Source: Eledone cirrhosa (taxonomy: Eukaryota). From it: DNA of 64,000 nucleotides. Below the pieces are notes generated by a model, which saw only the letters and a program-made list of their open reading frames with translations, had not been told where the DNA came from and did no database searches. The stretch lies in the NCBI GenBank assembly GCA_964016885.1, contig CAXHJY010000384.1:73930-137929 (forward strand). The letters run 5' to 3'. Both the position numbers and the translations under genes were made by a program. This document shows, one piece after another, positions 12,172 to 55,223 of this stretch (the first letter of the stretch is position 1; every line of letters starts with the position of its first letter).

Positions 12172-12259
12172 ACCCCTGATGACAGCCAGTAAACCGCCAA
12201 GCCCTTTGGCAAACAGTCTGGAACTAGTTGTTGAAATGGTAAGTGCTCAGCCGTTGGGT
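12172..12259 (+). ncRNA. Degenerate type I hammerhead ribozyme motif (family shared with 20711-20805 and 46776-46850)
   Basis: ACCC-CTGATGA-CAGC...GTTGTT-GAAA-TGGT(aagtgctca)GCCG-TT-GGGT. Stems I and III pair; stem II is out of register by 2 nt. Confidence 0.55.
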
Positions 12260-12269
12260 CCCAACTCTT

Positions 12270-12317
<48 letters not shown>

Positions 12318-12515
12318 TATGTTGGATGGTTTAACTAATAGGTAGATCTAGTCATTCTGATAGGCAGACCGTGATGCAATAAGGAAAAGCACTCAACGTT
12401 ATGCGAGACTCTCCGTCATAGTGATCGTATCATTAGCCAGGCTGCTTCCGTATCAATCCTTTGTTTATATTTTGCTATAACCCAGTAGGGATTACTAAAT
12501 TAAATCTTTTATGCT

Positions 12516-12595
12516 AATTACACCTGATGATGTCGATTGTCTTGCTTCATGGTCTAATGATGTAAGTTAGCCATAAAAATATGTATTGTGTAATT
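12516..12595 (+). ncRNA. Hammerhead ribozyme relic
   Basis: Perfect 8-bp stem I AATTACAC/GTGTAATT encloses CTGATGA...AAAA (GAAA mutated) and a quasi-palindromic stem III ATATGTAT. Stem II is diverged. Confidence 0.6.
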
Positions 12596-13716
12596 GTGTA
12601 ACATTAAAGGAATATATTGGAACCTGGCCTTCTGTTTTCAGTGTGTGTATGTGTGTGTGTGTAATTTAAAATATAATAGTATCTTTGTATTGTAAATGGC
12701 TATCATAGTGTATATACACAACAAAATGACAAAAGTGAATATAATATTATCCTTGCACTTTAGTTGGCTATCATGAAGCAACTGTTTCAATTTTGACATA
12801 TGATTCCATATTAAATCACAAGCCAAACTTGTTCATTTCCAAAATAATTATGATTTTGATCATAAAAAAATTACACTCTTTAAAGGATTATAGTGAAATA
12901 AGTATGAAAGTTTTAACAGAAATTTGACACAGGGTTATAAATATAGTTTACCAAACAATTACTAGTAACACACCACTTTAATTTTCTTTGGCAAAAAATA
13001 AGGCCAGAATTTATGGGCATAGAAATTAGTCTTCTTTAATATCACTGGTTTGTTATTTACCAGAAAACAATTGTGATAGCATGTAACATCTCTATCCAAC
13101 ATAACTGTCTCTGTGATTACTTGATATGCTAGAAATATCAACTAAATCGCCTTCGATTCACACCCTCATCATCACCATTTTACATCCATTCTCCCATGCT
13201 AGCATGGGTTAGACGAGTTGTCCTGTTGAGGGCAATGCCAGGTCAGGTGACCATGTCTTGCTCATACAGAACTGATTTTGGCCTTGATTTCTACAGCTGC
13301 ATGCACTTCCTAACACCAACCTCATTTACAGTGAGTACTGGGTGCTTTTTACTGTGGCGCCTACACAACCACTTTACAGGGTGGACTGGATGCTTTTTTG
13401 TCATGACACCTACACCCTAACCATCTAAAGTAAGCCAGAAACAGCCCTATATGAGCAACACATGGTCAGCCGACCCAACTTGCCTCTAATGGGACAAACC
13501 CGTCTAACCCATGCTCGCATGGAAAATGGACGTTAAATGATGATGATGATACATCAGAGAGTATAAAAGGCATAAAAGGCATATTTAGACAACAGTAATC
13601 AGTGAAGGCGTGTAGCCTAATAGTTTGAGTGTTAACTCATGATCATATGGTTGTGGAATTCATTTATAGACTGGATAGCACATTGTTTTTTGAGCAAAAC
13701 ACTCCATTTCATGTTA

Positions 13717-14213
13717 GGAAACCTCTTATAAGATGCAATCTTTTAGAAGGCCAGTTAAACCTTCAGAGGTGTGAGCTGCAACAAAATGATAAGACTTTGT
13801 CTTCTATCGTTAAAACACCTAAGAAACCTCCTATAAGATGCAACCTTGTAGGTGACCAGCTAAACTTACATAGGTGTGAGCTCTAACAACAATGATAGGA
13901 CTGGGTCCTCTATCGTTAAAACACCTGAGAAACCTTCTGTAAGACCCAACCTTGGATGAAGCCAGCTAAGACACATAGGTGTCAGCTGAAACAACAACAT
14001 GATAGGATCGGGACCCCTATTGTAAAAACACCTGAGAAACCTCCTATAGAATGCAACCTTGTATGAAACTAGCTAAACTTGCATAGGTGTGAGCTGTAAC
14101 AACAAAATAATAGGATAGGGACCCCTATTGTGAAAACATCCAAGAAACTTATAAGATACAACCATGAGAAGATCAGCTAAACCTATATAGGTGTGAGCTC
14201 GCTCCAACAACAA
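13717..14213. repeat. Diverged tandem repeat, ~105-108-bp unit, ~4.7 copies
   Basis: GAAAC(C)T..ATAAGATGCAACC..CAGCTAAAC..AGGTGTGAGCT..ATAGGA..CTAT..AAAACACCT recurs near 13718, 13823, 13929, 14036 and 14144. Confidence 0.9.
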
Positions 14214-15092
14214 CAGTAAATGTTAGAGAGACAGTTTGTTATCATCTAACTTTAGTATTGATTGAGAAAACTACAACAAAACCTATTTTGTCTCAATGAA
14301 AGTATTATTGTTATTTACTAAAAGAAATACTTCTTGTCCTTTGAAGGTCAGACAGTATAATAAAAATACAGTAATTCTACTGCAATCAGTACAAGCTTTT
14401 ATAAAAAAAAGATATTTTTTTCACAAGGCCATGGACATAAAGCATCACACACAACCACACATCTGATAATAGTTTCAAGAATGTTCCATTGATCACTCTC
14501 CCCTCCAACTCCACTTCAATTCAAGAGTTCTAAAATGATAAAAGCAGTATAGTTGCTAACAATTCTATTATTCTGTAGTTCTGTATACAACAATGAAGAG
14601 TTTCATGTCTCCCATTAATTAGTTGCTGTATTTAGACCAAACTACAGCAAAAGAAATCATAAAGCCAGTAGCAATGAATACTTTTTTATAAAATGAAAAC
14701 AAAAAAAAGCTTTCTTTACTATCATCATTATTGTCTCTATGAACAGATGCAGCCAAGAAGAATGTGAAAACTGGGAAGTTAAAACTAGATTAGTTGAGAA
14801 ATAAAGTTATTTGTGCTACAAATCCGTTGAACCTGCAACAAAGTGGGGGAAAATATGGCTACAAATTTTGTTTCCATTTTTTTTAATTGAGAAGAGGGTC
14901 TTATATAAGGAGAACATTATGTGGACATATGGTTAGGATCTTAGCAAACAAGATGAAAGAATTAAAGGTCAAGACAGATCAAACAGAGCTGTATTGTTGA
15001 CATAAATAACTGGAGCATAAATGCTATTAAATTCTAGAAATCTCCCACTCTAGATATCTTCTGTTAGGTATTTTTAGTCATAATAATAATAA

Positions 15093-15237
15093 TAATAGTT
15101 TCTACTTTTGGTACAAGGCCAGCAATTACCCAGTACATTACTGGTACTTTATTTTTATCAACCCCGTAAGGATGAAAGGCAAAGTTAACCTCGGTGGGAT
15201 TTGAACTCAGACCGTAAAGAGACGTAACTATGCTGGA
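15093..15237 (-). mobile_element. Meta-like tRNA SINE
   Basis: Near-identical to the 7603-7753 copy, with a (TAA)n flank. Confidence 0.85.
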
Positions 15238-15954
15238 TAATGTCTTAGTAATAGCAGCAGCAGTAATAGTTACAATAGTAATTAATAAACTACCTCAATT
15301 AGATTTTCTTCAATTTTCTTATATCTGGCACCAACATCATTAACCAAGACCAAACTCAGATATAAATATTATAGTCAGACAATCAACCAACGTTTGTACA
15401 TGTATGACCTCAAGTTTTGAAGTTGCAAATGATAGATAACTAAAAATACTACTACAGTATGTTGCAAATGATAGATAACTAAAAATACTACTACAGACAG
15501 AACATAGATTTAACAAAGAAATTCACTAGATTTGGATCAGAAAAATATGCAAGGCAACTTTGAAGAGAGGAAAATTAAAAACACTACAAAATGGTTCTGA
15601 AAGATGGGCATTTAATCTGATCATCGAGCAGATGCAGCTGTGATCCATCATCTAAAATTAGGGCTGAAACTAGTCACTCTGAAGACAGTTGTCAAACAGC
15701 AACGGTCAACCCTATCAAAAGCTTTTGGTTGATCTAAATTTATCAAGGTCACATAGAAGCCTGCTTAACAACCCTCTTTATGATGTATTGCCCGAGTTGG
15801 ATGCTATTGTGGATAGAGTTATTTGGAATCACATAGATTTACACTTCTCTAAGCAAACTACTGACAACATGCATCAACCTCCTTACAATCACCTTGACTG
15901 AAATCTTAAATCCTAAATTCAGCTTTCTGTTGTTATTTGTTTCAATACTGTTAT

Positions 15955-16055
15955 TGCACTTGCTGTTTCATTACCATACATCGTTGTACTTAATACACAA
16001 ACATTATAAAATCTGCCCTTCACTGAGAGAGAGAACCCCTTTGTTATCAGCACAG
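15955..16055 (-). mobile_element. Small RTE ORF2 fragment
   Basis: LITKGFSLSVKGRFYNVCVLSTTMYGNET aligns with [29 protein letters not shown] of the RTE at 53406. Confidence 0.75.
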
Positions 16056-19000
16056 TATGTATAAAATCATAAAATAAAAAAAAAATTATGTAATATATAC
16101 ATACATTGTGTGTGTAAACAAATGTCAATTGAATTCTCTTTAGTTTTTCCTTTTAAATCTTATTAAAAGCGACAACAAAAGAACCACCCTGATATGTCAA
16201 AATTAAAGTCCAAACAAACCAATCACAAGGAATCAATTTAAACAGACATTCAGGTTTTCATTTATCATCAGTTGTGTTTGTCACACTGGTTTACATTTAC
16301 AACGGCAAAGTGCAAGGTGTTTATATGAAAGTAGATGCCGAAGTAGGTGATCATGGAAATAGTTTTCAACAGTCCTTTTACTCTTATCTAAGTCCAGCAG
16401 TCATTCTTTGCAGTAAATATTTACAATAGAAGCTTACAATCACAGTACACATTCAGTTGGCTTATTTGCACAAAACAGACTGGTGGTTCCTTGTTCAACT
16501 AAACGTTTCACAACAAAATTTCACATTGGTTAATTGGAACATATGAGCTATTTGGGGTTTGGGGTTGATTTAGTTTGTTGTTTTGTTTTTTTAATAAATG
16601 TCAAAAAATGAATCTAATGCTAACAGATTTTATAGAAAATCTGGAAAAGTATATAACTAGTCTTCTGACAACTGTTATAAAAAGAACCCATGTGTTATAT
16701 TGATTTCCTTGGAGAATAATATTGATTTCCTTCTTCCCACCAGTCTCAGAGGCCCTGAAAAGAGTCATGAGTATTGTTCTTCCTTCGCTAATCTACATAT
16801 TCTGCCATTCACAATAACTGTAAAAGCTTTCTTTGTCATGGTATGTATCCAAATGTTATGTTTTTGAAGGGAAATAACCTTGTCTTGATTGTTATTCTTA
16901 TCTGTTGCAATCAGCGAAGTGAATACTAAGAGTCAAAGAACCAAGACAAATATTGCAAATACTTCTAAAGCCTCTACTAATTTACCATTAAGATCTTTGG
17001 TGTTATGCAATAATACAGAAGACCCACCTTTCTATGTTAAAGCATACATCTAGTATGCACCACCCCTCTCCCTTCCATACACCTCCCACACCCTAACACT
17101 CCATCCAGGTACTTACACACTTACACCCACCACTCCAGTGCCCAGTCCACACTGTAAAGTGATCATTTTGGTTTCACAACAAAAACGACCAGTTCATACT
17201 GTAAAGTGGTTGTTTTGGTGCCATGTCAAAAAGTGCCAGCCCACACTGTAAATGTGGTTGGCATTAAGAAGGGCATCCAGCTGTAGAAACCAAGCCAGAA
17301 ACACTTGTGTATGAACAAGACACAGTCACCTGATCTGACTTGTCTCACAACAGGAGAACTGATCTAACTCATGCTAGTGTGGAAGAATAGATGTTAAATG
17401 GTGATGATGATAGTGGGGAGAGGAGAGATGACAGTAGTTAGTGAACTTATTCATTCCAGGTTTATGAGATGTTTGTCTACTCAACAAGCTAGCAGACATC
17501 CAGCATTAACTTAGCAGAACCCCATGGAGTATGTGAACCACAGGTCATCAACCATTGATCTACATTGTGTAATTTGGCTACAACCATCAACAACCATCTT
17601 TTTTTTCCATAAAACTTGGGATGGGTAGCTTTACCATATTTTGTATCATTTCTCAAAATACTAAATTTTCACCTTTTTTCCAAAGGAACTCATTGCTTGC
17701 CAATACCTTTATACTCAACCACTAGCCTATAAGAATTCAAACAGAATATTAACCATATTTTTAAAAAAAGGAGGTTTGTCAGATCGAATCAAGGAAACTT
17801 TGTTTCAATTGGTTTTATCATTACTGACACTATTTGCTTAGCACAATTCCTGGGAGAAGAATTTCTTCTTTCTGGTGACAGCAGATGGGATTTGAAGTCA
17901 AAACTCACTGAACCAGAACAAAAACCACAAAGCAACTCATCTGACTAACAATCTACCCTTTAAAAAAAATGAAAGGCAATGTTGACCTCAGCAGGATTTG
18001 AACTCAGAGTGCAGAATAAATACTAAGACATTTAATTTGATGCTCTAATTACAATACCAATTTTCTGCCTATATGCTAACTATATTAATCCAACAACTAC
18101 ATCCCTATTTGTCAATGGCCTAGGGAGGGTATGGCATTGCCTCATTTTTGAACACGTGCAAAACAAAAAATAAAGAAAATAATCTTTGCTAAAAGACTAT
18201 TAAAATATATTTTGTGACCTTTTGAATTATGCCTGTGATGAATATTTTCTATACTAAACATGTCTTCAGGCCCAACTATGACTGAATATCTTAGATGTTG
18301 GGATCCTCAAGAGATAAATTTCCTAAACCTGAAAGACATCAGTGAGAACTGATTTGAACTGAAAATATTAATTCTGTTTTCAGTAGGGTTAAAGCTAATA
18401 GGAAACCAGAGAACAGTTATCTAAAGATCTCTAACACTTTAGTGGGGGAGGGGGAGATAATTTAAACTCAACAACTCCATGTGGATGATTAAGATGTATA
18501 AAGTTTATTAGGACAAAATTTATCAACTCCATAGCAGAGATATAATTTTGGTATACAGAGCAGGCAGTGTTGAGAGATTATAAATGTATGATTGCTGTAC
18601 AGCTGTTTTATTTCTTCAAATAAACAGCAGAGAGGAGCATCAGCTTATAATTTTAAACATTTCACTCAAAGGATAGACCAAGTTTGTTTTCCCTATCCCT
18701 GATTTAAAGCATAAAACTATTATGAAACAAATATTATTGTAAGCTTTTCAGCACTATTTACATTTTTGACTATCCAACCCCAACATCCTTCTCAATTTAA
18801 ACCTCTGATGACTTTACCCACAATATATAAATATACACACATACATACTAATTATCATCATCACTACTGCCATTTTATATATAATGATGTATATATAATC
18901 AGAGAGAGACCCGACGTGTAATAATGCAATAGGCATCTGTCAATAATAAAACTTACCAGATAAACATCAGCACTATCTAATTTAGTAGACTCTCATGCCC

Positions 19001-19402
19001 TTTGTAAAACATCAGAGAGAGAGAGATTTCTTCATGATCTTGACAAACAGAATAGTGAATATGCTACCTTAGAGGATAGTGATGGAGAGATAGTCAACTC
19101 ACAGGGCTTATTCTAGCAAATGGTCATCTTTATTCCAAGCATAGTAAATAGGGAGGTAGTTCAGAGATGCAAGACACCATCTGTTTCCCCTATTGGGAGA
19201 GCAAGCAGCTAGTACTTAGTCAGCTGGTGATATTGCGCATCACATGCCACGAAACCTGAACCTGATTCTGAATTCACCAGGTTGTTGCTGGAGAAAGTAT
19301 ATGGACAGATTTTTACTGTGAGAATGACAAGCTATATAACAAGATGAGAGTGACAAAAAACATTAAAAAATAATAATAATAAAAATAATAATAATAATAA
19401 TT

Positions 19403-20598: not shown

Positions 20599-20617
20599 AT
20601 ATATATATATATATATA
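20511..20617. repeat. (GT)n followed by (TA)n microsatellite
   Basis: Direct reading. Confidence 0.95.
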
Positions 20618-21147
20618 ACGAAGGAAATGTGGTAAGGAACCAGGTGGACCATAACGCACCAAAGTACTCAATACTTAGGGTAGTAGAGTGGGTAATAGGA
20701 ACGAGTAGGAACCCGACGGCTGAGCTCAAGCCGTTTCGACGGCTAATTTTGGACTAAATGAAAATTTTTATCCTGGTATATGAAAGGCCAAGCTTCTCAG
20801 GGGGTAATTCCATATATGGTAAAAGTGATTGTCACAAGGATTGGTCAAAAGTTTGTTGTTGAGACAATAATTTTATCATGGCAATTTGTGGAGGGAGGGG
20901 GTAGCTGAACCTGCCAGTAGAAGAAAGAGGGAGAGGGGGTGGAGGAAACCCAGTCGTGCGTTGATAGTGCCAACTACAGCTGGGCAGGAGGTCAAAGAAG
21001 ATACTAGGGAGGGGGAGGAAGTCGAAACAATAAGTAAAACAATATGGGGTAAATATATAGAAAAATATCGAGTGTTTCTCGATATTTTTCTATATATTTA
21101 CCCCATATTGTTTTACTTATTGTTTCGAATTCCTCCCCCTCCTCCTC

Positions 21148-21150
<3 letters not shown>
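20618..21150 (-). mobile_element. Probable Penelope-like terminal repeat remnant with hammerhead motif and terminal palindrome
   Basis: TA-flanked and homologous to 46776-46933 in the opposite orientation. Minus strand reads CCC-CTGAGAA...GCCGTC-GAAA-CGGC(ttgagctca)GCCG-TC-GGGT at 20805-20711. Confidence 0.55.
21008..21142. repeat. Palindrome with perfect 51-bp arms and 5-nt loop
   Basis: 21022-21072 is the exact reverse complement of 21078-21128 and extends a further 13 bp past one mismatch. Confidence 0.95.
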
Positions 21151-21188
<38 letters not shown>

Positions 21189-21324
21189 TTATTAAAATAA
21201 CAGATTAAAGTTTAAGTAAAGAATCGCTGCTTTCACTCTTAATGGGATCTTCTGAAACTAACAAAGTCAATCTGTGAACGCAGAAGTGAATATTTCAAAA
21301 AACGTTGCAACCGGAGGAAGACAG

Positions 21325-21610
21325 GAAGACGATTCTTTGGTTCGTGGAAACGTTCCCTGGCAAAGAACGGGAAAAACCGAATATAATACGTCATTATTTG
21401 GAGCGGTGAAAAACAATTACACGCAAAGACAAAACCACGTTTATGGTATAAAAGAAGTCGTAGACTAATATTCTATTAGGTGGTTCATAGAGACGTTCTC
21501 TGGCTATGAACGGAAAAAACGAAGATAATACGTTATATGTGGAGCGTAGAGAACAATTGCACGCAAAGACAAAACCACGTAAATGGTATAACACAAGTCG
21601 TAGACTAAAA
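21325..21610. repeat. Diverged tandem duplication, ~140-bp unit
   Basis: CACGCAAAGACAAAACCACGT..ATGGTATAA..AAGTCGTAGACTAA occurs at ~21420 and ~21560. Confidence 0.85.
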
Positions 21611-22214
21611 TTCTAACTAGGAAACCGAATGATTCTCGGCTTCAGAGTTAAGAATAAAGTAAATAAAATGCAGAGGTAATTGAAATTAAATAAATACATA
21701 CACGCATCTATATACGTACATACACAAGCATACGCGAAAATACTCGCCATGGGTATACAAATACACGCACATATATATATGTGTGTGTGTGTATACAAAT
21801 AATTAAATAAACGTATATAAATAAATAAATACGTATATAACAAGCGCGCACACATACCTACATGTAAATACACATATGTTCGGAGACGAACGTCGACCAA
21901 AACACGAAGTACACATATACACACACCCTACATACGTACGAACCCGCATACTCACACAAACGCAAAACTCACGTATACACATAACCAAAAGCATATGTAC
22001 CAGAATATATAAAATATACGCCATAACATATACAATCAAATATACGTACGAGAAAGTATACGTACCTTCACAAAACATACAGGTAATATATACTTACCTA
22101 TACAAATAAATAATGGTATAAACATAACATATACCTAGCTACCACATCAAGACGTAAAATATCCGCGTATAGTTCATACTATCCGTTAGGGTATAATGTG
22201 GGGCTGTAATACAG

Positions 22215-22592
22215 GAAAATTTTGTGCAATTTATGTTTACAAGCCGAAATTGCCTCAGATTTTTTGTTTAAGATGTGGTCTTTGGCGTAGAGTATTTCCA
22301 GGGACTCAGCGGCGCAGAGGTCACATGGTCTTATTTCCGTTATACGATCTAGCCCTAGCTAGGATTAACTTATATTGGGTGTGGTTATCTTTTAGACTCC
22401 AGATATAAGCTGAAAGTGACGTCATATTCCTTCTTAAAGGGTAACGAAAAGAATGGGTATGCATGTAAAGACGCTGCTTGAATCTATTGGCGGTTAACTC
22501 TATGTAGGCCCTGCGGGACGTGGGTGTTTCAACCTTACATTTGTAGACAATGTTACTAGAGAGGCATTTCTCGGATAGGGGGCAGTCATCAA
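22215..22592 (-). mobile_element. Penelope-like element GIY-YIG endonuclease fragment
   Basis: CPLSEKCLSSNIVYKCKV..AYIELTANRFKQRLYMHTHSF..TSLSAYIWSLK..LNKKSEAISACKH. Confidence 0.88.
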
Positions 22593-26945: not shown

Positions 26946-27544
26946 TTAATGTTTCTTCTTTCACGATCGCTTAACAAATTGATACTAGCTACAGTTTGAC
27001 AAAGTGAAAGTGGTACATTTTAACCATGGTTCGCCACATGTCTTGACTACACATTTGAGTGTAGCTACATAATTATTTACAGATAATAGTAAAGTTTACT
27101 ATAAGTTTAGATGCAGCAAGCGTCCTTTGGTATTATTCATATACATATTCCGATACATCTATCTAGAAATTTAAAATAGAATCGGACTATATACGTCAAA
27201 CGGAAAACACACACATAATAAATATCCACTTTGGTATTAATTTTCCTTGTGTTGACAAACCCAAATGTGTGTGTGTGTATATATATATATACACACACGT
27301 ACATTTTGGTTTGCCAACACGAGATTGGTATATATATATATATATATAATATACCAAAGTTGATATTTTACGTAAATTACAGAGGCTATTTTGTTGCTAC
27401 TCTTGTGTTTTGCGAAACGCAGAGTAGCAACAAAGAGTAATCACAGTATATATATATAATCGTTGAAATTTATTGTTACGAACGGAGATGATCCAGAAAG
27501 TAAGGTACTCAATACATCAAGTAGAGATATTAATTCATTACGAA

Positions 27545-27642
27545 ATGGTTCTTACAGGACTAATTCCTTTTCCTTCAAGTAAGATTTCGTCAGAACCTTT
27601 CTGGCGAAGTTTTAATTCAAGAAGGACAGATTAGTCTTGAGT
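27545..27642. ncRNA. Eroded head-to-head pair of hammerhead-like motifs
   Basis: Minus strand CTGACGA..GAAA..TA-GTCC; plus strand CTGGCGA..GAAG..TA-GTCT. Related to 46984-47073, with which it shares a GTAAGGTACTCAATACAT flank. Confidence 0.4.
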
Positions 27643-31650: not shown

Positions 31651-31765
31651 ACGCCATAAACAGTTGTGACAGAAAAGATGGTAAAGAAAGAATGGGGAAG
31701 TCGTCGTAACGCCCCGCCAACCATATCTCTTATCCTCACAGGGAACACAGATCACAGTAGCTGTC

Positions 31766-31907
31766 GAATACGCGCTTTTCGCTGGAGAAATTCTCGTTTC
31801 CGCAGTTCGTCTGTTCGTCATCCTTTGTTATGGACATCAATAACAAAGGATGTTACGAACTGACAAGTTGTAGAAATGAGAATTTCATCAGCGAAACGCG
31901 CGTATTC
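31766..31907. ncRNA. Head-to-head inverted pair of type I hammerhead motifs
   Basis: Plus strand: GAA-CTGACAA-GTTG..CAGC-GAAA-CGCGCG-TA-TTC (31857-31907). Minus strand: CGAA-CAGACGA-ACTG..CAGC-GAAA-AGCGCG-TA-TTCG. 10-nt central loop. Confidence 0.75.
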
Positions 31908-32001
31908 ACATTAAAATGTGAATTCAAATTAAATCTTGTGTACATACGTACGCGCGCGCGAGCACACACCACATATATATATTCATATATATTATCATAT
32001 G

Positions 32002-32089: not shown

Positions 32090-32242
32090 TTTAAGTCCTT
32101 TTAACTGACACACTTGACCTAACCTATGTGTTTGAGTGAGTGCATGTGCATGTATGTTTTTATACATACATACATAGGCACAGTGGTCTCACAAAGTCAC
32201 ACACACCAAGTTAGGTCAAGTGTGTCAGCTGAAAGAACATAA
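32090..32242. mobile_element. Small MITE-like inverted repeat
   Basis: CTGACACACTTGACCTAAC / GTTAGGTCAAGTGTGTCAG. Confidence 0.55.
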
Positions 32243-32682
32243 ACCCCTTTTTTGTAACAAACCACCCGAAACCGCCTTTGGTTCTTTGATACAAAACTGT
32301 GTTTAAGAGTGTTTATATTTCTCTAAACACTTTCCATTTTATGTAAGAATCTTTGTTTGGTGGTTGTCAACAAGTAGCAACACTCACCAAAATTAGATAT
32401 TAGAAATAAGTGAATGCCAATTGAACAGACGCCAAAGATAAAGTACCTCAGGTGTATTCAATCAGAAAAAAAGGAAATGTAAAAGAGAAACCAAAAGAAG
32501 AGTTGGGATTGCGAGAAAGTCATCTGAAAAAAAATGTCTTGTAAACTTACACCAAAAACATCAATATAGGCTTATATAAAAAGATTATTAGAAACCAGGC
32601 AATCCCAAAACAAGCCATTCTTCCATTAAATGTTTATAGGTTAGACAACAGTAATATAATTAATATAAATAGAACTGTGGTC

Positions 32683-34827: not shown

Positions 34828-35390
34828 AGTGTCGGCGGCCCGTCTGAGGAGGGAGCCCCGTGAGGTTGGGTGGCAAACTACAGCCACCTCTTTTAAATGT
34901 CTCTCTATCGATGGATGGATGGATGGATGCATGCATGCATGCATACAAGGAGCTCTTAAGAGTCAATGGCCATCCAAAATCACCGGGAGAGATGACCCCT
35001 TAGCCTTTGTCAAGGCAGAATTCTAGGAGAAGGAAAACTCTGATATAACACCTGCAACCCTGATGGTATCCAATGATGTTGACTTGTTCTTCTTTTTGGT
35101 AAATATCATCTTGGTTAAGAGAGTGGGACTGGCTTTGTGCAGTGCCTTTGCTCACTATAAAAGCTTCACGGCACAGGCATTGCTTTATATCTGGAGATCT
35201 CTCTGCACTTGTCATCACATGGTACCATGGGCCCAGCACTATGTGTCAATAATTGTCACAAGTGTAGTGTTTGTACCAGAGTTTTCAAGTCGCTGGCTGG
35301 ACTAAAAGTCACTCGTTCAGCGCATCGGTAGGGGTTCTCCTACATGGATATAAAGTAGTGGCCGTACTCGAAAACGAGTTGGCAGCCACC
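34828..35390 (+). mobile_element. Non-autonomous RTE-derived (bipartite) retroelement, copy 1
   Basis: RTE 5'-type motif CTAGGAGAAGGAAAACTCTGA. The 3' part reads as a C2H2 finger relic (HKCSVCTRVFKSLAGLKSH). Followed by (GT)n; ~400 bp are near-identical to 46337-46739. Confidence 0.7.
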
Positions 35391-35847: not shown

Positions 35848-37259
35848 AGAAGCAAGGTGCTACTCTATGTATTCTCAGAAACAAGGTGCTACTCTATGTG
35901 TTCTCAGAAACAAGGTGCTACTCTATGTGTTCTCAGAAACAAGGTGCTACTCTATGTGTTCTCAGAAACAAGGTGCTACTCTATGTGTTCTCAGAAACAA
36001 GGTGCTACTCTATGTGTTCTCAGAAACAAGGTGCTACTCTATGTGTTCTCAGAAACAAGGTGCTATTCTATGTATTCTCAGAAAAAAAGTGCTACTCTAT
36101 GTGTTCTCAGAAACAAGGTGCTACTCTATGTGTTCTCAGAAACAAGGTGCTACTCTATGTGTTCTCAGAAACAAGGTGCTACTCTATGTGTTCTCAGAAA
36201 CAAGGTGCTACTCTATGTGTTCTCAGAAACAAGGTGCTATTCTATGTGTTCTCAGAAACAAGGTGCTACTCTATGTGTTCTCAGAAACAAGGTGCTACTC
36301 TATGTGTTCTCAGAAACAAGGTGCTACTCTATGTGTTCTCAGAAACAAGGTGCTACTCTATGTGTTCTCAGAAACAAGGTGCTACTCTATGTGTTCTCAG
36401 AAACAAGGTGCTATTCTATGTGTTCCCAGAAACAAGGTGCTATTCTATGTGTTCTCAGAAACAAGGTGCTACTCTATGTGTTCTCAGAAACAAGGTGCTA
36501 CTCTATGTGTTCTCAGAAACAAGGTGCTATTCTATGTGTTCTCAGAAACAAGGTGCTACTCTATGTGTTCTCAGAAACAAGGTGCTACTCTATGTGTTCC
36601 CAGAAACAAGGTGCTACTCTGTGTTCTCAGAAACAAGGTGCTACTCTATGTGTTCTCAGAAACAAGGAGCTACTCTATGTGTTCCCAGAAACAAGGTGCT
36701 ACTCTATGTGTTCTCAGAAACAAGGTGCTACTCTATGTGTTCTCAGAAACAAGGTGCTATTCTATGTGTTCTCAGAAACAAGGTGCTACTCTGTGTTCTC
36801 AGAAACAAGGTGCTACTCTGTGTGTTCTCAGAAACAAGGTGCTATTCTATGTGTTCTCAGAAACAAGGTGCTACTCTATGTGTTCTCAGAAACAAGGTGC
36901 TACTCTATGTGTTCTCAGAAACAAGGTGCTATTCTATGTGTTCTCAGAAACAAGGTGCTACTCTGTGTTCTCAGAAACAAGGTGCTATTCTATGTATTCT
37001 CAGAAACAAGGTGCTATTCTATGTGTTCTCAGAAACAAGGTGCTACTCTATGTGTTCTCAGAAACAAGGTGCTATTCTATGTGTTCTCAGAAACAAGGTG
37101 CTACTCTGTGTTCTCAGAAACAAGGTGCTATTCTATGTATTCTCAGAAACAAGGTGCTACTCTGTGTTCTCAGAAACAAGGTGCTATTCTATGTATTCTC
37201 AGAAACAAGGTGCTATTCTATGTATTCTCAGAAACAAGGTGCTATTCTATGTGTTCTCA
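35848..37259. repeat. Homogeneous 29-bp minisatellite, roughly 49 units
   Basis: Unit GTGCTACTCTATGTGTTCTCAGAAACAAG, with some 27-bp variants and no spacers. Confidence 0.97.
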
Positions 37260-45109: not shown

Positions 45110-45730
45110 AGAGAGGGTTAAATCAATTAAATCGACCCCAGCACTTGACTAGTATATTATTTTATCGATCTCATGAAAGTTAATCTCGGCAACATTTGAA
45201 GTCAGAATGTAAAGAGCCAGAAGAAATACCACAAAGCATTTTGTCCAACGGTCTAATAATTCTGCCAATCCAACACCCTAAATAGTTTGATAATTGTTTC
45301 TACTTTAGGCACAAGGTCAGCAATTTGTAGGAGAGGGGAAAGTCGATTAAATCGACCCCAGTGCATAACTGGCACTTTATTTTAAGGATGAAAGGCAAAG
45401 ATAACCTTGGCGAGATTTGAACGTAAAGAGCCGTAACTATATGTCATGAAGCATGTTGTCCGACGCTCTACCGATACTGTCAATTCACTGTAGTCTAATA
45501 ATTGTTTCTACTTTTGGCACAAGGCCAGCAATTACCCAGTACATTACTGGTACTTTATTTTATCGACCCCGTAAGGATGAAAGGCAAAGTTAACCTTGGT
45601 CTAATAATGATTATATTAAAATCCCGCCGAGGTTAACTTTGCCTTTCATCCTTCCGGGGTCGATAGAATAAAGTACCAGTAATGCATTGGGTATTTGCTG
45701 GCCTTGTGCCAAAAGTAGAAACAATTATAT
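45110..45730. mobile_element. SINE cluster ending in a closely spaced inverted pair
   Basis: Minus-strand copies at 45110-45600 and a plus-strand copy at 45620-45730. Confidence 0.85.
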
Positions 45731-46336
45731 TAAAAGTTAACACTTTTGTAACTATATTTCTACTGAAAGACACTACTATATTTTGAAAATAACTAATAAT
45801 TTTAATTCTATTCCTTTATTTTCTTTTGTTTCCTTTTCTTTTTTTTTATTATTGTTGTCGTTATGTATATATTATTGCTTGTGCTGATAATATTCATAAA
45901 AAATTTCATTGTTTAAAATATAACAAAAATACATATAATACTTTAATAAATTTAAGTTTCGTGCCAGGGTCAGGTGGGGCAGTTCGTGGTAGTTTAGTAC
46001 TGAGAGGGTTAAAGATTAAAAATAAATACAACATAACATTCTATTTTTAGTTTTGTTTGATTACTTGATTGATTAATTAGCTAATTGTTTGATTAACTGA
46101 CTGATGGCAACATCTTTTGACTTTTTTGTCTTTCTGCTTCCATAAATATATCTCTTTCCCAAATCAGACTTACTGTTTACTGGAGTGAATATAATGATTT
46201 ACTTACTCCTCACTAACCTTTCATTAACACTTCACTTCACATCCAATGACTTTTTTTTTCACGTTATCCACCCACCCTATTTACCTCTCCCTCTCTCATG
46301 TATATGTATGTATGTATATATATATATATACATACA

Positions 46337-46737
46337 GATGACCCCTTAACCTTTGTCAAGGCAGAATTCTAGGAGAAGGAAAACTCTGATATAACACCTG
46401 CAACCCTGATGGTATCCAATGATGTTGACTTGTTCTTCTTTTTGGTAAATATCATCTTGGTTAAGAGAGTGAGACTGGCTTTGTGCAGTGCCTTTGCTCA
46501 CTATAAAAGCTTCACGGCACAGGCATTGCTTTATATCTGGAGATCTCTCTGCACTTGTCGTCACATGGTACCATGGGCCCAGCACTATGTGTCAATAATT
46601 GTCACAAGTGTAGTGTTTGTACCAGAGTTTTCAAGTCGCTGGCTGGACTAAAAAGTCACACTCGTTCAGCGCATCGGTAGGGGTTCTCCTACATGGATAT
46701 AAAGTAGTGGCCGTACTCGAAAACGAGTTGGCAGCCA

Positions 46738-46739
<2 letters not shown>
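46337..46739 (+). mobile_element. Non-autonomous RTE-derived element, copy 2 (5'-truncated, in TA repeats)
   Basis: Near-identical to 34990-35390. Confidence 0.75.
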
Positions 46740-46775: not shown

Positions 46776-46779
<4 letters not shown>

Positions 46780-46930
46780 ATGTTCAAGACCCCGACAGAA
46801 ATAGCCGTCGAAACGGCTTGAGCTCTGCCGTCGGGATCTTGAACATTTTCCTATTACCCACTACTATTACTCTAAGTATTGAGTACTCAGGTGCGTTATG
46901 GTGCACATGGTTCCTTACCACACTTCCTTC

Positions 46931-46933
<3 letters not shown>
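46776..46933 (+). mobile_element. Probable Penelope-like terminal remnant: hammerhead 3' half inside a fold-back
   Basis: GCCGTC-GAAA-CGGC(ttgagctct)GCCG-TC-GGG, with outer arms GAAAATGTTCAAGA/TCTTGAACATTTTC. Confidence 0.55.
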
Positions 46934-46983
<50 letters not shown>

Positions 46984-46989
<6 letters not shown>

Positions 46990-47073
46990 TTCTACAGGAC
47001 TAGAACTTTCATTCGAAGGAAATCATCAGGAAAAAGCCCTTCGAATAAAACAGTTGTAGTCCTGTAGAAGCCA
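46984..47073. ncRNA. Fold-back containing hammerhead remnants on both strands
   Basis: Arms ATGGCTTCTACAGGACTA/TAGTCCTGTAGAAGCCAT. Minus strand CTGATGA..GAAA..TA-GTCC; plus strand AAAA-CAGTTG-TA-GTCC. Confidence 0.5.
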
Positions 47074-47329
47074 TTTCTATATTGAATATTTATACTCAGC
47101 TATGTATTGAGTACCTTACTCTGGTTACCCCCGATTGAACCCGGGATATACGCACACACACAGATAGATAGATATATTTAAAGGTTAAGCAAGTTTCAAT
47201 GAATAAATCAAAGAATGAGTTTTACAATAGATTGGAAGCACTCAACAGTATGGTTTTCTGGAGTTATTAATATTAATTCAAAATATTAATAAAAATAGAC
47301 ATTCTGTCAGGGTATGTCATGCATCATCT

Positions 47330-47396
47330 TATTTTATCTGATGAGGACGTACTGTTGAAGATAGCTCAGTACCTCTGAAATATGTATAATAAAATA
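47330..47396 (+). ncRNA. Type I hammerhead ribozyme with intact catalytic core
   Basis: Stem I TATTTTAT/ATAAAATA, CTGATGA (47338-47344), stem II GGACGTACTG/CAGTACCTCT (9 of 10 paired), GAAA (47377-47380), quasi-palindromic stem III ATATGTAT, cleavage triplet AUA (after 47388). Confidence 0.8.
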
Positions 47397-47433
47397 TACT
47401 TGATCACACGAATGTCTATTTTTGTTAATATTA

Positions 47434-47470
47434 GTCTGTCTGTCTGTCTGTGTCTGTCTGTCTGTCTGTC

Positions 47471-47557
<87 letters not shown>

Positions 47558-47558
47558 G
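47434..47558. repeat. (GTCT)n microsatellite
   Basis: Direct reading. Confidence 0.95.
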
Positions 47559-48639: not shown

Positions 48640-48820
48640 TAGCAACCACCAGACTCAGAGCATGGAATCTAGTCAGAAGCCTTCTCCAGACTGACAAATG
48701 CTGAGTAGAGATGCTTATTCCTTGATGAGTACTTCTCCTGCACTTGTCTCATTGGGAAGATGACATTAGTAAGCAACCTTCCTGGTATAAAACCAAACTG
48801 CACTTCATCTATATTAATTT
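48640..48820 (-). mobile_element. Old RTE RT fragment
   Basis: QFGFIPGRLLTNVIFPMRQVQEKY..LYSAFVSLEKASD. Confidence 0.75.
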
Positions 48821-49434
48821 TCTTCTGTAACTTGTTCAGTAACTTTCATAACCTGGTCAATACATTTGAAGCTTCTGTATAATTGCTTCCTTTTAGAGTG
48901 TCTTTTGTCCCAACAATACTGGATTAAATGCAGAGCAAAATAAGGACTTGCTTAAAATATCAAGGGAAGATGATCACTATTTTATTCAAATTAAATGTAT
49001 ATGTCATTCCCCAACATATATATATATATATTTTTTGCTGACTTTATATATCGTGGGAACACCATAATCTTTTAACTTTAAACATATAGGGAACCAGTGA
49101 TTGTATCATTAAAAATCTGTAACCAATGATGCTATGAATCCTTTTGATATCAACCACCTGAAACCACCTCTGGTTCTATTGATACAAAGCTGTTTGTTTT
49201 AAAGTGTTTAAACTTATCTAAAAACCTCCAATCATAATTTTATGTAAGATTCTTTGTTAAGTTATCTTCCAACCACTCATGGTTCTATGATATTAAGCTG
49301 TTTATTTTAAAGTGTTTATATTTATCAAAAAAACATTTTTAAATTCTGCATTGTTTTTAAGCTTATTTTAAATTCATATGCAGTGTCTTTTATTAGAAAA
49401 ATAATAACGAAAGAGTTAATCACAAATTGTGATA

Positions 49435-49622
49435 TACAAGGGTCAGCTGAAAAGTTCATAGGCTGATTAAGATACTCTCATGGAATGACCAAATGAGGTT
49501 TATTTTTCAACAGTCATTGGAAAGAAACAATGCAGTTATTAAGAAGAGTTGAAATTAACACAAACAAGATTTCACAGCTCTCCACCATAGTCAGCATATG
49601 AACTTTTCAGCCAACCCTCGTA
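49435..49622. mobile_element. Complete mariner-type MITE
   Basis: ~30-bp TIRs (CAAGGGTCAGCTGAAAAGTTCATAGGCTGA / TCAGCATATGAACTTTTCAGCCAACCCTCG) flanked by TA. Confidence 0.85.
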
Positions 49623-50234
49623 TAACTCAAACAAATAAAATAAATATAATGTCCCAAAATAAACAACAAAATACATGCTGTGAAACTGAACATAAAACTT
49701 TTCAGATGAAATCCCATTCAGTCATGTTACATCTTATAGAAAGAAACACTCAACATGGATGCTGTCGTTGTTGTTGAGGTTGTGCTTGTTGTCAAGGTTG
49801 CAAGATATGTGCATACAGCTTGATATATGTATTCAACAAGTGCATACATGCATATATGTGTGGAGATGAGTGCAAGTTGATAACTAGAAGGCAGGGAAGA
49901 TAAGGAAGAACAAAGAAAAAGAAACAATGTTGATGACAAATGCTGCTAGGATGCAGCTAGAAGTAACATTGTCAATATGTCTATAACTTACATAAAATAT
50001 TGTAGGTAGTAAAATGGTGGTGTACTGTACATTAAAGTAGAATGTTGTAGTGGGGGTAGTAAAACTGATGTACTGAACATACAGTAGTATAGATAGTGTA
50101 GTGAACATTATAATGCAGTAGTATACTGTGGGTAGTGAAACGACCGTATAACTGCCATTCTTTCACAAAATTGGAAAAAAACAGCAACCCACCCAAGGAA
50201 GGCGCCCTATGAGGCAGAGTGATTATTGTAGTAG

Positions 50235-50300
50235 AGGTGATGCTGGCCGTTCTCTGTGGCAATGCCTTCGTCATTTTGTCTGCAGGGTGGAGCTGAGAGA
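50235..50300 (+). mobile_element. Extreme 3' tip of a CRE element
   Basis: LAVLCGNAFVILSAG matches LAVLRGNVFSILSAG at 24560-24600. Confidence 0.65.
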
Positions 50301-50399
50301 TATCGCTAAGGCTGGGCTGAAGAGTCTGTCACACCCTGTCCCCTTTTCCCTTCCCTTTCATTGTTGACTTTCTTCTTTCATTTTATTTCTTTTCAACTG

Positions 50400-50695
50400 C
50401 CAAACCGCAGACTGGTACTAGACCATGGGCCATTTGGTACTGCGCTGCACAGAAAGAATAAAAACTTTTTTTTTACCATTTTACTGACTATTGCAACTGC
50501 AACCTTATTTTGAGTTGAGTCACATTTACAGTATAAATGTCATGATTAAATTAATAATAAAATTATATAATATGCACTTTATTGTTTGTGTTGTTAAACA
50601 CGTGACTGACACTGATCACCCTCTTCCCTCGTTCAATGGAGAAATTGTCTTGCATGATACTGCTCTGTGGCACAAAATGGTTGGGGACTGATGCT
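50400..50695. mobile_element. hAT-type MITE remnant
   Basis: Ends in AAAATGGTTGGGGACTGATG, similar to hAT-Charlie termini; the left end is eroded. Confidence 0.45.
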
Positions 50696-51738
50696 CGAAA
50701 CGATTCAGCTATTTAAATAGGAAGCTAAACAATGGCTGAGATGTTAACATTTTGAAAATATATTATGAGAACATTGGTAGATTGAAATTCTTAGAAAATG
50801 TAGAAATCTAAATTTTTATTGTCAAGGGACGATACCATTGTGTGACAAATACCGCCTGAACTCTAAGAGTTTCTATAGCCAATCCCTAGAACAGATTTTC
50901 TAGATGTGGAAGGTAAATTTTTTCTCCTGGATAGAGCACTAGTCTCTTTCAGAAGACATTCACAGATGATCTGCTACTTAATCTCTGGTAGTTAGCTGAA
51001 ACATGTACCATTAAATACACTACCTGAATCTACAATCAAATATCTGTAGTTGATTTGAATATGAAACACGTGACAGCAGTCCAATACAATATTGACGTGG
51101 ATATTTATACATACAGACACAGATGCATATATACATATACATATATACATATACATATGTATATAAAGGATCGATCGACTTTCGTCAAATCGGACTGAGG
51201 AAACAATGTTTTCGTCGGTCTTTCCAGTTGCTAGTACTATCTATCGGTCACAACTCCAGGTAGAAGGAGCAACGTGAAATAAAGTGTCTTGCTCAAGGAC
51301 ATAACGCATCACCCGGTCCGGAAATCGAACTCACAGCCTCAAGATTGTGAATCCAATTCTCTAACCACTCAGCCATGCGCCTTCACTAATATATATATAC
51401 ATATATATATACATATATATACATATACATATATACATATACATATATATACATATACATATATACATATATATGTATATATATATATATATACATGTAC
51501 ATACATATACATGTATACATATATATATACATATATATAAATATATATATATACATATATGTAAATATATATATATAAATATATATATATACATATATAT
51601 AAATATATATATATATACATATATATAAATATATATATATACATATATGTAAATATATATATATAAATATATATATATATACATGTACAGACATATACAC
51701 ATATATATACATATACATGTACAGACATATACACATAT

Positions 51739-51773
<35 letters not shown>

Positions 51774-52110
51774 TATATATACATATATATATATACATAT
51801 AAATATATATATATACATATATATAAATATATATATATACATATATATAAATATATATATATACATATAAATAAATATATATATACATACAAATAAATAT
51901 ATCTATATACATATAAATAAATATATCTATATACATATAAATAAATATATCTATATACATATAAATATATCTATATACATATAAATAAATATATCTATAT
52001 ACATATAAATAAATATATCTATATACATATAAATATATATATATATATATATAAATATATATATATACATATAAATATATATATATATATACATAAATAT
52101 ATATATATAC

Positions 52111-52141
<31 letters not shown>

Positions 52142-52378
52142 AATATATATATATATATACATATAAATATATATATATATATACATATAAATATATATAT
52201 ATATACATATAAATATATATATATATATACATATAAATATATATATATATATACATATAAATATATATATATATACATATAAATATATATATATATACAT
52301 ATAAATATATATATATACATATAAATATATATATACATATAAATATATATATATAAATATATACATATAAATATATAT

Positions 52379-52438
<60 letters not shown>

Positions 52439-52542
52439 ATACATATATATATATATAAATATATATATATACATATATATATACATATAAATATATATAT
52501 ACATATAAATATATATATATATACATATATATATACATATAA

Positions 52543-52573
<31 letters not shown>

Positions 52574-52681
52574 CATATATATATACATATAAATATATAT
52601 ATATATACATATATATATACATATAAATATATATATATATACATATATATATACATTATATATACATATATATATATATAT

Positions 52682-53031
52682 ACCCCGTCCCGCCACCACC
52701 CCCACCCCATCCACACCACCCCGTTCTATGTAAAGTTATGTTGGTGCCGCGCCATCCAGGCCGAAACAAATGAGATCGTGTAGGTGTCACGACAAAAAAA
52801 CACACAGTCCACGCTGTAATGTGGCCGTGAAGGCAACACGGTAAAAACCTCCCAGACCCACACTGTAAATGTGGTTGGTGTTAGGAAGGGCATCCAACTG
52901 TAGAAAACCTGCCAGACAGTCCTATGCGAGCAAGACAACCACTCTTGCCTCAAGTGGGACTACCCCGTCCAAACCCATGCAAGCGTGGAACACGGACGTT
53001 AAACGTTGATGATGATGATGATGATGATGAT
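52682..53031 (+). mobile_element. RTE LINE 3' UTR-only copy with (GAT)n tail
   Basis: Reverse complement of 53061-53397 with a handful of differences. Confidence 0.92.
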
Positions 53032-53060
53032 ACATATATATATATACAAATAAATATATA

Positions 53061-54684
53061 TCATCATCATCAACGTTTAACGTCCGTGTTCCACGCTTGC
53101 ATGGGTTTGGACGGGGGTAGTCCCACTTGAGGCAAGAGTGATTGTCTTGCTCGCATAGGACTGTCTGGCAGGTTTTCTACAGTTGGATGCCCTTCCTAAC
53201 ACCAACCACATTTACAGTGTGGGTCTGGGAGGTTTTTACCGTGTTGCCTACACGGCCACATTACAGCGTGGACTGTGTGTTTTTTTGTCGTGACACCTAC
53301 ACGATCTCATTTGTTTCGGCCTGGATGGCGCGGCACCAACATAACTTTACATAGGACGGGGTGGTGTGGATGGGTGGGGGTGGTGGCGGGACGGGGTGTA
53401 TTTTGTTAGAGATGCCTACTGGCAAGGCGGGTCTTCTCTGTTACTGAGTACCGCCAAAGGTCTCGGTCCAGTGACATTGTCTTGGAGAGGTGTAAGTGTG
53501 TGAGGTCGGAGTTTATCAGCTCGTCCCAGGTTTTTCTAGGTCTGCCTATTCCGTGGCTACCGTCTATCTTTATTGCCCTGCACTTTGTTATACAGCTATC
53601 GACTTTCATGCGCATCACATGTCCATACCAACGTAGCCTTCTCTCGAGTAAACAACATCTGATCCCTCTTATCTCTAATTTTTTCCTTAGTTCGTTTATG
53701 CTTTGCCGTTCACGTATATTACTGTTACACATCCAGCGGAGCATGCAAGCTTCGTTCCTCTCTAGTCTGCGTATATCCTCTGCACACAATGCCCAGGTCT
53801 CACTGCCATGCAACATTGCTGTTCGTATGCAGGCATCGTACAACCTGCCTTTCATTTTTAGGGAGAACCCTTTAGCAGCTAATAGTGGTATAAGCTCTCT
53901 GAACTTTTTCCAACCAGTTCTGACTCTAGCTACAGTACTTTCAGAGCACCCTCCCCCACTGCTGATTTTATCGCCCAGGTAACGGAAGCTGTCCACTATT
54001 TCTATAAAACCCTCTGCGCAATTGAAAGAGCTAGTATTTTGTGGGCACTTGCTGCTACTTATTGCACCAGAACACCGGCCACATGTAAAATCTATGTTCT
54101 TAGTTAGCTTACCTGTGATCCCACTACATCTTTTATGCACCCATACTTTGCATTTAGGACATAAAGTGGAGTTTCTACCTACGCCTTTCCTACACACCGA
54201 GCACGACCATTTCCCAGAAGGGACCGCCGCCTTGTTTTCTTTCCTACAAACTAGAACTTTGGTCTTAGCCAGGTTAATTTTAAGTCCTTTTGACTCTAGG
54301 CCGTGCTTCCATGTTTGGAATTTCTTCTCTAGCTCGGCCATTGATTCCGCTATGAGTGTCAGGTCGTCTGCGTATAGGAGTTCCCATGGGCAGCCTGTCT
54401 TGAACTCCTCTGTTATAAGTGTCAGGTCGTCTGCGTATAGGAGTTCCCATGGGCAGCCTGTCTTGAACTCCTCTGTTATAGCCTGAAGGGCAATAATAAA
54501 TAGTAGGGGGCTGAGAACAGAGCCCTGATGGACGCCAACTTTTACGCTAAACTCTTCACTATATTCGTTGTTAATTCTAACCTTGCTGACTGTTTCTTTA
54601 TACATGGCTTGTATAGCCCTCACAAGCCATTCGTCAACCCCTAGTTTTCTAAGAGCCCACCAGATAATGGAGCGGGGGACTCTG
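53061..54684 (-). mobile_element. Young 5'-truncated RTE-clade LINE: RT C-terminal half, PHD finger, 3' UTR, (GAT)n tail
   Basis: Uninterrupted frame 54681-53406: [33 protein letters not shown] (twice), [44 protein letters not shown]. Confidence 0.95.
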
Positions 54685-55182
54685 GATATATATATACATA
54701 TAAATATAAATATATATATACATATAAATATATATATATACATATAAATATATATATATAAATAAATATACATATAAATATATATATATACATATAAATA
54801 TATATATATATAAATATATATATATATAAATATATATATATACATATAAATATATATATATAAATATATATATATAAATATATATATATACATATAAATA
54901 TATATATATAAATATATATATATAAATATATATATATAAATATATATATATAAATATATATATATACATATATTGTTATATTTGGGGAGGGTCATATTTG
55001 CGTAATATTGCCAGAATTAATAACAGAACACACTCACTGTTTGGTTGGTTTTCGCTTCTCGCTGTCTTTTATATCTGCGGTCTAACTTACTCGGTCCTCA
55101 ATGTTGCCATTGACTGACCGACGGTCAAAAATAATACAGATACAATATAGACACAAACACATATATATAGTTTACATAATTT

Positions 55183-55223
55183 ACATAAATCTTTCGTTGC
55201 ACATCTGCAACATCGTCAGTGGT
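55183..55223 (-). ncRNA. Minimal hammerhead motif in a unique island inside the TA tract
   Basis: CA-CTGACGA-T-GTTGCA(gatg)TGCAAC-GAAA-GATT-TA-TG. Core and 6-bp stem II are perfect; stems I and III are weak. Confidence 0.6.

What the first reader, a model, noticed from the sequence alone, without database searches (positions are those of the whole stretch)
12172..55223. Dispersed hammerhead and fold-back system next to TA microsatellites
Seen: hammerhead-like motifs at about nine loci from several sequence families (12172, 12516, 20711, 27545, 31766, 46776, 46984, 47330, 55183). Most abut (TA)n tracts, at least four sit inside fold-backs, and the window has only one Penelope coding fragment (22215-22592). 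Inferred: these may be small non-coding ribozyme-bearing retroelements (retrozyme-like) mobilised by Penelope RT. They could equally be decayed pseudo-LTRs.
Basis: partly seen in the sequence, partly recalled or inferred. Interest (0 to 1): 0.7.

Follow-up and report, generated by a model that had tools for sequence, protein, structure and literature searches.

The report
Broken-off ends of Penelope retrotransposons
Eight of the nine ribozyme-like spots are short, mostly decayed tail-ends of several families of a known jumping gene (Penelope-like elements) that sit beside TA repeats, and only one likely belongs to a small non-coding hitch-hiker, so the finding is real but largely ordinary.

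Summary
The nine loci fall into seven repeat families, each with tens to over 11,000 genomic matches. All have hammerhead-derived anatomy, but only 47330 passes a strict descriptor, and most window copies are broken. TA adjacency (7 of 9 within 100 nt, against 11% background) and the fold-backs are real.

Six families (eight loci) map to the 3' pseudo-LTR of protein-coding Penelope-like elements: five Hydra-clade, one Neptune/Nematis-type. The link is strong for 20711/46776, 47330 and 55183, moderate for 12172, and rests on one or two loci for 27545/46984 and 31766. (TA)n targeting, 5' truncation, inverted 5' copies and tails are published features of these elements. No short tandem arrays were seen.

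Only the 12516 family has a hard 5' boundary and no linked ORF; it may be non-autonomous.

Cleavage was not tested. The scan noted this system before on other DNA of this genome.

The parts
12063..12274 (+). Family E: 5'-truncated 3' end of a Hydra-clade Penelope-like element; hammerhead at 12171-12258 (CTGATGA and GAAA intact, cleavage triplet decayed GUC>GUU, 2 nt lost at the base of stem II)
   Evidence: (81-83% to L218/L219)
12275..12314 (.). (TA)20 tract shared by the E copy and the G copy
12315..12400 (-). Family G: inverted tail
12401..12640 (+). Family G body, candidate non-autonomous element; hammerhead at 12518-12593 with G12>A in this copy; stem I keeps pairing through a two-sided change against the family majority
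20612..21076 (-). Family A: 5'-truncated pLTR/3' UTR copy with tail; complete hammerhead at 20711-20805 with core CTGAGAA (C3.A8)
   Evidence: 91.6% to L161 over 474 nt
21008..21142 (.). Fold-back at the 5' truncation point of the 20711 copy; the inverted arm ends at a TA inside the element
21186..22588 (-). Family I: 5'-truncated Hydra-clade element with GIY-YIG endonuclease end (22200-22584, with stops and a frameshift) and 3' UTR
21209..21259 (-).
27460..27640 (-). Old family B copy, weak fold-back; decayed hammerhead at 27547-27597
31765..31945 (+). Family C: head-to-head pair of decayed minimal hammerheads (31855-31907 on +, 31765-31818 on -), each with one core change
46776..46933 (+). 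Family A: inverted arm, 3' half of the hammerhead only (46803-46835; the CUGA half is absent), 83-nt tail
46934..46986 (.). (TA)26 tract between the A and B copies
46987..47146 (+). Family B fold-back plus tail; CTGATGA survives only in the inverted arm (46987-47034 on -)
47164..47432 (+). Family D: inverted tail and arm, then the direct copy with the one intact minimal type I hammerhead (47330-47396; stem I 8 bp, near-palindromic stem III)
54966..55259 (-). Family F: 3' end and tail of a Neptune/Nematis-type element; core intact at 55184-55221, stem II 6 bp, stem I only 2 bp
   Evidence: 92.8% to L311

Best explanation
Eight of the nine loci are 5'-truncated 3' ends (pseudo-LTRs) of six families of protein-coding Penelope-like retrotransposons, lying beside TA microsatellites and carrying hammerhead-derived motifs whose cleavage is untested; the ninth (12516) is likely a short non-autonomous derivative. 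Shown: the motif lies in the pLTR before and after the ORF in full-length copies; copies end at fixed points next to (TA)n; many carry a head-to-head inverted arm of variable length that starts at a fixed TA-like site; the tail is the sequence that leads into the ORF in full-length copies and stops at a second TA-like site. Inferred: the element's GIY-YIG endonuclease nicks (TA)n; the RT copies from the 3' end and usually stops early; snap-back or template switching makes the inverted arm; cutting at TA-like sites inside the element sets the two ends. Each insertion leaves TA tracts that attract the next one, which would build chains such as A-B-D at 46776-47432. The short copies would be dead on arrival.
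For: Family A: 25 of the 30 best endonuclease-end loci have the motif 0.2-1.2 kb downstream on the same strand; 6 of 8 elements picked for long frames carry the whole motif on both sides of the ORF. Family D: 2 of 6 extended loci are colinear over 4.6 kb (85.7%) with the ORF, the motif at the 3' end and an inverted copy at the 5' end; a third is interrupted. Family F: 9 of the first 20 pattern hits have the ORF end about 480 nt upstream; L311 holds 4,147-bp tandem units with 675-aa frames. Family E: motif directly before an ORF in L218, endonuclease end 1.2 kb upstream in L219. Family B: L254 reads inverted B, ORF, 3' UTR, B. Family C: decayed endonuclease upstream in 2 of 25 loci. Hydra marks seen in L157 and relatives: DKT, CxCx5C linker, CxxC..E..N..CxH, RWR for RWK (criteria in PMC8557442 section 11). 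Family A ends: 30 of 30 stop at the same 3' point next to TA, 21 of 30 have the inverted arm starting at one site. The same architecture is described in PMC8557442 and PMC3846280 (passages).
Against: The B link rests on one locus of a related subfamily (76-80% identity); none of the 60 B search loci showed a colinear ORF within 1.5 kb. The C link rests on weak matches (E 3e-9 and 9e-5). Family G is not linked. Pfam found nothing in the family A protein and only a sub-threshold RVT_1 hit in F; GIY-YIG hits came from neighbouring fragments, so the clade calls rest on motifs, not on a tree. Search loci are best hits, not random samples, except those. Tails of about 80-200 nt are longer than the 30-40 bp in print. 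Single hammerhead segments show no folding excess.
Confidence: 0.87

Rival explanations
1. Family G (12516) is a monomeric non-autonomous element of about 390-430 nt, moved by Penelope enzymes, perhaps through an RNA circle that closes at a TA site. This can be true together with the best explanation.
For: In 30 loci fetched with a 5' query no direct homology runs past a 10-bp hairpin at the 5' end, and about ten copies start at that hairpin. No colinear ORF in 15+30+30 partly overlapping loci or 8 longer stretches. Same inverted arm, tail and TA ends as the autonomous families. Family C, of similar age, does show upstream extension.
Against: No tail-to-start junction: 0 exact pattern hits (low power at about 20% divergence) and none in 30 tail loci. 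No tandem copies in 14 loci. The family is old, so long copies may be rare, and the hairpin beside a TA site could be a truncation hot spot.
Confidence: 0.55
2. All seven families are non-coding retrozymes that borrow Penelope RT.
For: Copies are short, dispersed, carry type I hammerheads, and the window has one coding fragment. Retrozymes are proposed to derive from pLTRs (10.64898/2026.07.22.740005; part 1 of 5 and passages). Earlier scan notes report such arrays in other families of this genome (unchecked).
Against: Six families connect to ORFs. Only 11 of 178 loci had a second same-strand match; the 6 inspected were separate insertions split by TA tracts or other sequence, or a cross-match to another family, one more was a low-complexity artefact by its offsets, and 4 were not inspected. 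5' ends are variable.
Confidence: 0.04
3. The motifs are chance CTGANGA/GAAA words inside hairpin-ended DNA transposons (MITE-like).
For: The CTGANGA count equals chance; no Rfam hammerhead hit among those shown; no folding excess.
Against: Seven unrelated families keep core order and stems with different sequences. In family A, 99 of the first 100 hits read YTGANAA with position 7 varying among G, T and A. The arms are head-to-head with variable turn points, not terminal inverted repeats, and the families join RT/GIY-YIG ORFs.
Confidence: 0.02

Closest known systems
Hydra clade of Penelope-like elements (Craig et al. 2021, PMC8557442; section 11 and passages read)
   Same: C-terminal GIY-YIG, DKT, CxCx5C linker, CxxC and CxH around conserved E and N, (TA)n insertion, hammerhead in the pLTR, 5' truncation, inverted 5' copy, tail.
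   Different: RWR for RWK; units of about 3.5 kb (A) to over 4.4 kb (D) against 'generally <3 kb'; tails about 80-150 nt against 30-40 bp; tens of thousands of fragments; hammerhead cores often non-canonical where the paper reports canonical ones.
[quoted passage not shown]
   Same: Type I, short or palindromic stem III, extra nucleotide before stem II (F), U3-A8 core (A), 2-bp stem I as in D. virilis (F); mostly single motifs or opposite-strand pairs from truncated elements.
   Different: A, E and G have 50-55-nt stem II domains; a subfamily of A has C3.A8; family I has U4>A with a CUU triplet. These were not seen in the parts read.
Neptune/Nematis-type Penelope-like elements (family F)
   Same: CX4CxxC linker, CCHH-type endonuclease, tandem 4.1-kb units.
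   Different: Not assigned to either clade; no tree was built.
Metazoan non-LTR retrozymes (PMC7229834, passages; 10.64898/2026.07.22.740005, part 1 and passages)
   Same: Non-coding, type I hammerhead, 150-450 nt; monomers are known. Fits family G in size.
   Different: Defined by head-to-tail tandem units and circular RNAs; no tandem unit was found for any of the seven families.

Membership tests
Penelope-like element (EN+) | RT plus GIY-YIG ORF linked to the terminal motif | tested here: met
   A, D, F strong; E moderate; B one locus; C two weak loci. Not met for G.
Penelope-like element (EN+) | Direct pLTRs or partial tandems with the hammerhead in each | tested here: met
   A: 6 of 8 long elements; F: 4,147-bp tandem units. 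Not seen for B, C, D, G; E only as an upstream pLTR.
Penelope-like element (EN+) | Inverted 5'-truncated copy and optional tail | tested here: met
Hydra clade | DKT, CxCx5C linker, CxxC..E..N..CxH | tested here: met
   A, D, B (linker variant), I; E and C by similarity to the A protein only
Hydra clade | RWK motif | tested here: inconclusive
   RWR in A and D
Hydra clade | Phylogenetic placement with reference Hydra RTs | not tested
   No reference sequences were in hand; assignment is by motifs
Hydra clade | Insertion into (TA)n | tested here: met
   145 of 178 copies against 32% background
Type I hammerhead ribozyme | Core order with stems I-III at family level | tested here: met
   Majority sequences of A-G; canonical G10.1-C11.1 in A, C, F; U.C, U.U or G.U at the base of stem II in E, B, D
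Type I hammerhead ribozyme | Intact core in the window copies | tested here: not met
   Intact at 47330 and 55183; complete but C3.A8 at 20711; core present with damaged stems or triplet at 12172 and 27545; core changed or split at 12516, 31766, 46776, 46984
Type I hammerhead ribozyme | Self-cleavage | not testable with these tools
   Needs an in vitro assay or raw RNA reads
Non-LTR retrozyme | Head-to-tail tandem units of 150-450 nt, each with a hammerhead | tested here: not met
   power is low for G
Non-LTR retrozyme | No link to a coding element | tested here: not met
   Linked for six families; no link found for G
Non-LTR retrozyme | Circular RNA | not testable with these tools
   Needs RNase R-treated RNA reads

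The most novel reading that the evidence does not exclude
The most successful Penelope families of this genome have fixed core changes expected to cripple cleavage (U4>A with CUU in family I, over 18,000 copies; C3.A8 in about a quarter of family A) while keeping the three-way fold, so the hammerhead works here as a structural cis-signal rather than as a catalyst; and family G is a monomer-only, non-tandem hitch-hiker that uses the same two TA-like cut sites. Near-identical families with intact and altered cores would then make the open question of hammerhead function in Penelope elements directly testable.
Probability: 0.25. Interest if true: 0.55.

Novelty: new member of a known kind. Interest (0 to 1): 0.24.

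Why it matters
It shows that hammerhead fields beside TA microsatellites in such genomes are mostly Penelope 3' ends and should not be counted as retrozymes without an upstream check. It adds a very large Hydra-clade expansion with near-intact copies, useful for in vitro work on the unexplained inverted arm and tail. The fixed core variants give natural test cases for whether cleavage is needed, which PMC8557442 calls unclear.

Tried and rejected
Rfam scans gave no hammerhead hit among those shown. The repeat finder was swamped by the TA-rich arrays, so a masked self-BLAST was used. A DNA search with the 55183 locus returned nothing, not even itself; a pattern search then found 11,363 matches, so the blank was a search artefact. 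A pattern for G's 5' start gave 17 hits against 26 in the control, and only 4 were G: uninformative. The tail-to-start junction pattern gave 0, with low power. Pfam was blank for most Hydra proteins. One G stretch (L256) was taken on the wrong side and left out of the upstream comparison. Lunse et al. (PMC5785218) on small hammerhead variants of Penelope elements is not held and may already list U4>A or C3.A8 cores; no supplement of any paper was read, and those of PMC8557442 and PMC4209133 list hammerhead sequences that bear on this. Searches for prior reports; none of the listings or passages described these families. PMC13282606 (passages) mentions Penelope-like families without Hydra or ribozyme terms. 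Rejected readings: MITE-like DNA transposons, microRNA hairpins (all Rfam miRNA hits shown were far below their thresholds), Naiad clade (endonuclease is C-terminal here).
Full report
Setting. The window lies on contig C411 of a 3.0-Gb animal assembly. It is AT-rich, with long TA-type arrays from 51389 on and many SINE copies. From recalled SINE words I take it for an octopod; this was not tested.

Checking the motifs. The word CTGANGA is not enriched (26 against 22.8 +/- 4.7). A strict descriptor finds one hammerhead, 47338(+), against 0.05 in shuffles. A relaxed descriptor allowing U3-A8, an offset stem II and long loops finds 4 against 0.9 +/- 0.8: three of the nine loci and one unrelated hit. 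Rfam shows no hammerhead family among the hits displayed, and six segments fold no better than shuffles. Single copies are therefore weak evidence.

Family comparison is stronger. The nine loci belong to seven families: A (20711, 46776; 3,363 first-look candidates), B (27545, 46984; 2,758), C (31766; 92 with a better query), D (47330; 29), E (12172; 951), G (12516; 343) and F (55183; 11,363 exact pattern matches, control 0). Each majority sequence has the type I order, with stems of different sequence. Intact cores per family: A 24 of 26, D 24 of 29, E 15 of 29, G 7 of 14, B 7 of 20, C 5 of 27; F 21 of 21 by construction. In the window, 47330 and 55183 have intact cores, 20711 is complete with C3.A8, and the other six are damaged; 46776 lacks the CUGA half altogether.

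TA tracts and fold-backs. Seven of nine loci lie within 100 nt of (TA)5+, against 11% of positions; 145 of 178 genomic copies have (TA)4+ just downstream, against 32%. Four strong fold-backs and one weak one cover listed loci, and a fifth strong one (21008-21142) is the 5' end of the 20711 copy. The arms are head-to-head: in family A the inverted arm starts at one site in 21 of 30 copies, the turn point varies, and 30 of 30 copies end at the same 3' point next to TA. Families B, D and G show the same plan.

Link to coding elements. Family A: two of the first 30 loci carried an endonuclease end. Searching the genome with it gave 52,661 candidates; 25 of the 30 best had the A motif 0.2-1.2 kb downstream. 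Of 8 elements chosen for long frames, 6 have the whole motif on both sides of the ORF, with stop-free frames up to 791 aa. The tail is the sequence that runs on into the ORF in these copies. Family D: L210 and L211 are colinear over 4.6 kb, with ORF, 1.9-kb 3' UTR, motif and inverted 5' copy (2 of 6, a third interrupted). Family F: 9 of the first 20 hits have the ORF end about 480 nt upstream, and L311 has 4,147-bp tandem units. Family E: 2 of 4 extended loci. Family B: one locus, L254. Family C: 2 of 25 loci with decayed endonuclease. The A, B, D and I proteins carry the Hydra-clade marks listed in PMC8557442 section 11; E and C are placed there by similarity to the A protein. F has a CX4CxxC linker and CCHH endonuclease and shares only a weak endonuclease match with A. 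No tree was built.

Family G is the exception. No direct homology runs upstream of a 10-bp hairpin in 30 loci, about ten copies begin there, and no colinear ORF was found. Its tail also ends at a TA site, so a circle closing at that site is possible, but no junction or tandem was found. I put it at 0.55 that G is non-autonomous.

Retrozyme test. Non-LTR retrozymes are defined by short head-to-tail units (PMC7229834, passages; 10.64898/2026.07.22.740005). Only 11 of 178 loci had a second same-strand match. The six inspected were separate insertions or a cross-match.

Mechanism. Shown: fixed 3' ends beside TA, variable 5' truncation, inverted arms, tails, ORF links. From the literature: (TA)n targeting in Hydra elements, inverted 5'-truncated copies and tails (PMC8557442), self-priming proposed for the palindromic junctions (PMC3846280, passages), minimal hammerheads mostly as single motifs from truncated elements (PMC4209133). 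Inferred: nicking at (TA)n, early RT stop, snap-back, and cutting at two TA-like sites inside the element; serial insertion into the TA tracts gives the clusters at 12063-12640, 20612-22588 and 46776-47432.

Core variants. In family A the first 100 of 5,307 pattern hits read TTGANAA (76), CTGANAA (23) or other (1), never CTGANGA (counted by eye). U3-A8 is a known natural, active pairing (PMC3088659, passages; PMC4209133); C3.A8 breaks that pair. The window's own coding fragment ends in a hammerhead-shaped motif with CAGAAGA and a CUU triplet (21209-21259); 96 of the first 100 of 18,671 hits read CAGAAGA and none CTGA, and L362 links it to a Hydra ORF. Its hammerhead fold is not the lowest-energy one (-3.5 against -8.8 kcal/mol). 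Poor cleavage is a prediction from general hammerhead knowledge, untested here, and a paper on such variants could not be read.

Prior notes. The scan reported this system several times on other DNA of this genome, with both pLTR ends and true retrozyme arrays in other families. I had the Penelope reading before looking; the notes are not counted as support.

Verdict. A real feature, new members of a known kind. Interest 0.24.

Noticed in passing
   Followed up: partly
window 21338-21615: Two 140-bp tandem copies (84%) inside the 3' UTR of the family I fragment; the related locus L194 lacks this stretch.
   Followed up: no
window 52684-53395: Near-perfect 324-bp fold-back (98.5%) between TA-rich arrays, made of another repeat family.
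   Followed up: no
window 8601-8867, 9353-9479, 32090-32243, 45498-45728: Further fold-backs; two involve SINE sequence, and 9353-9479 abuts a TA tract.
   Followed up: no
window 34990-35390 and 46336-46739: 404-bp direct repeat at 98.5%, the second copy ending at the TA tract before 46776; its last bases recur beside TA in L096 and L345, so it may be a young element.
   Followed up: no
window 35848-37259: 29-bp minisatellite, 49 copies.
   Followed up: no
window 55260-64000 and 51389-52683: Very long degenerate (TA)n/(TACA) arrays, 8.7 kb to the window end.
   Followed up: no
L311 (G000:C1:14385500-14395000): Family F element in head-to-tail 4,147-bp units with two identical-length 675-aa frames.
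   Followed up: partly
L157, L158, L160: Family A elements with 789-791-aa stop-free frames and 98-100% identical pLTRs; the family is probably recent.
   Followed up: partly
families A, B, E and G tails: Tails of otherwise different families share the word TTGAGTAC or TTGAGTGC; a conserved 5' UTR signal is possible.
   Followed up: no
L100 2813-3148: Frame resembling a PIF1-type helicase end (recalled motif), possibly a Helitron relic.
   Followed up: no
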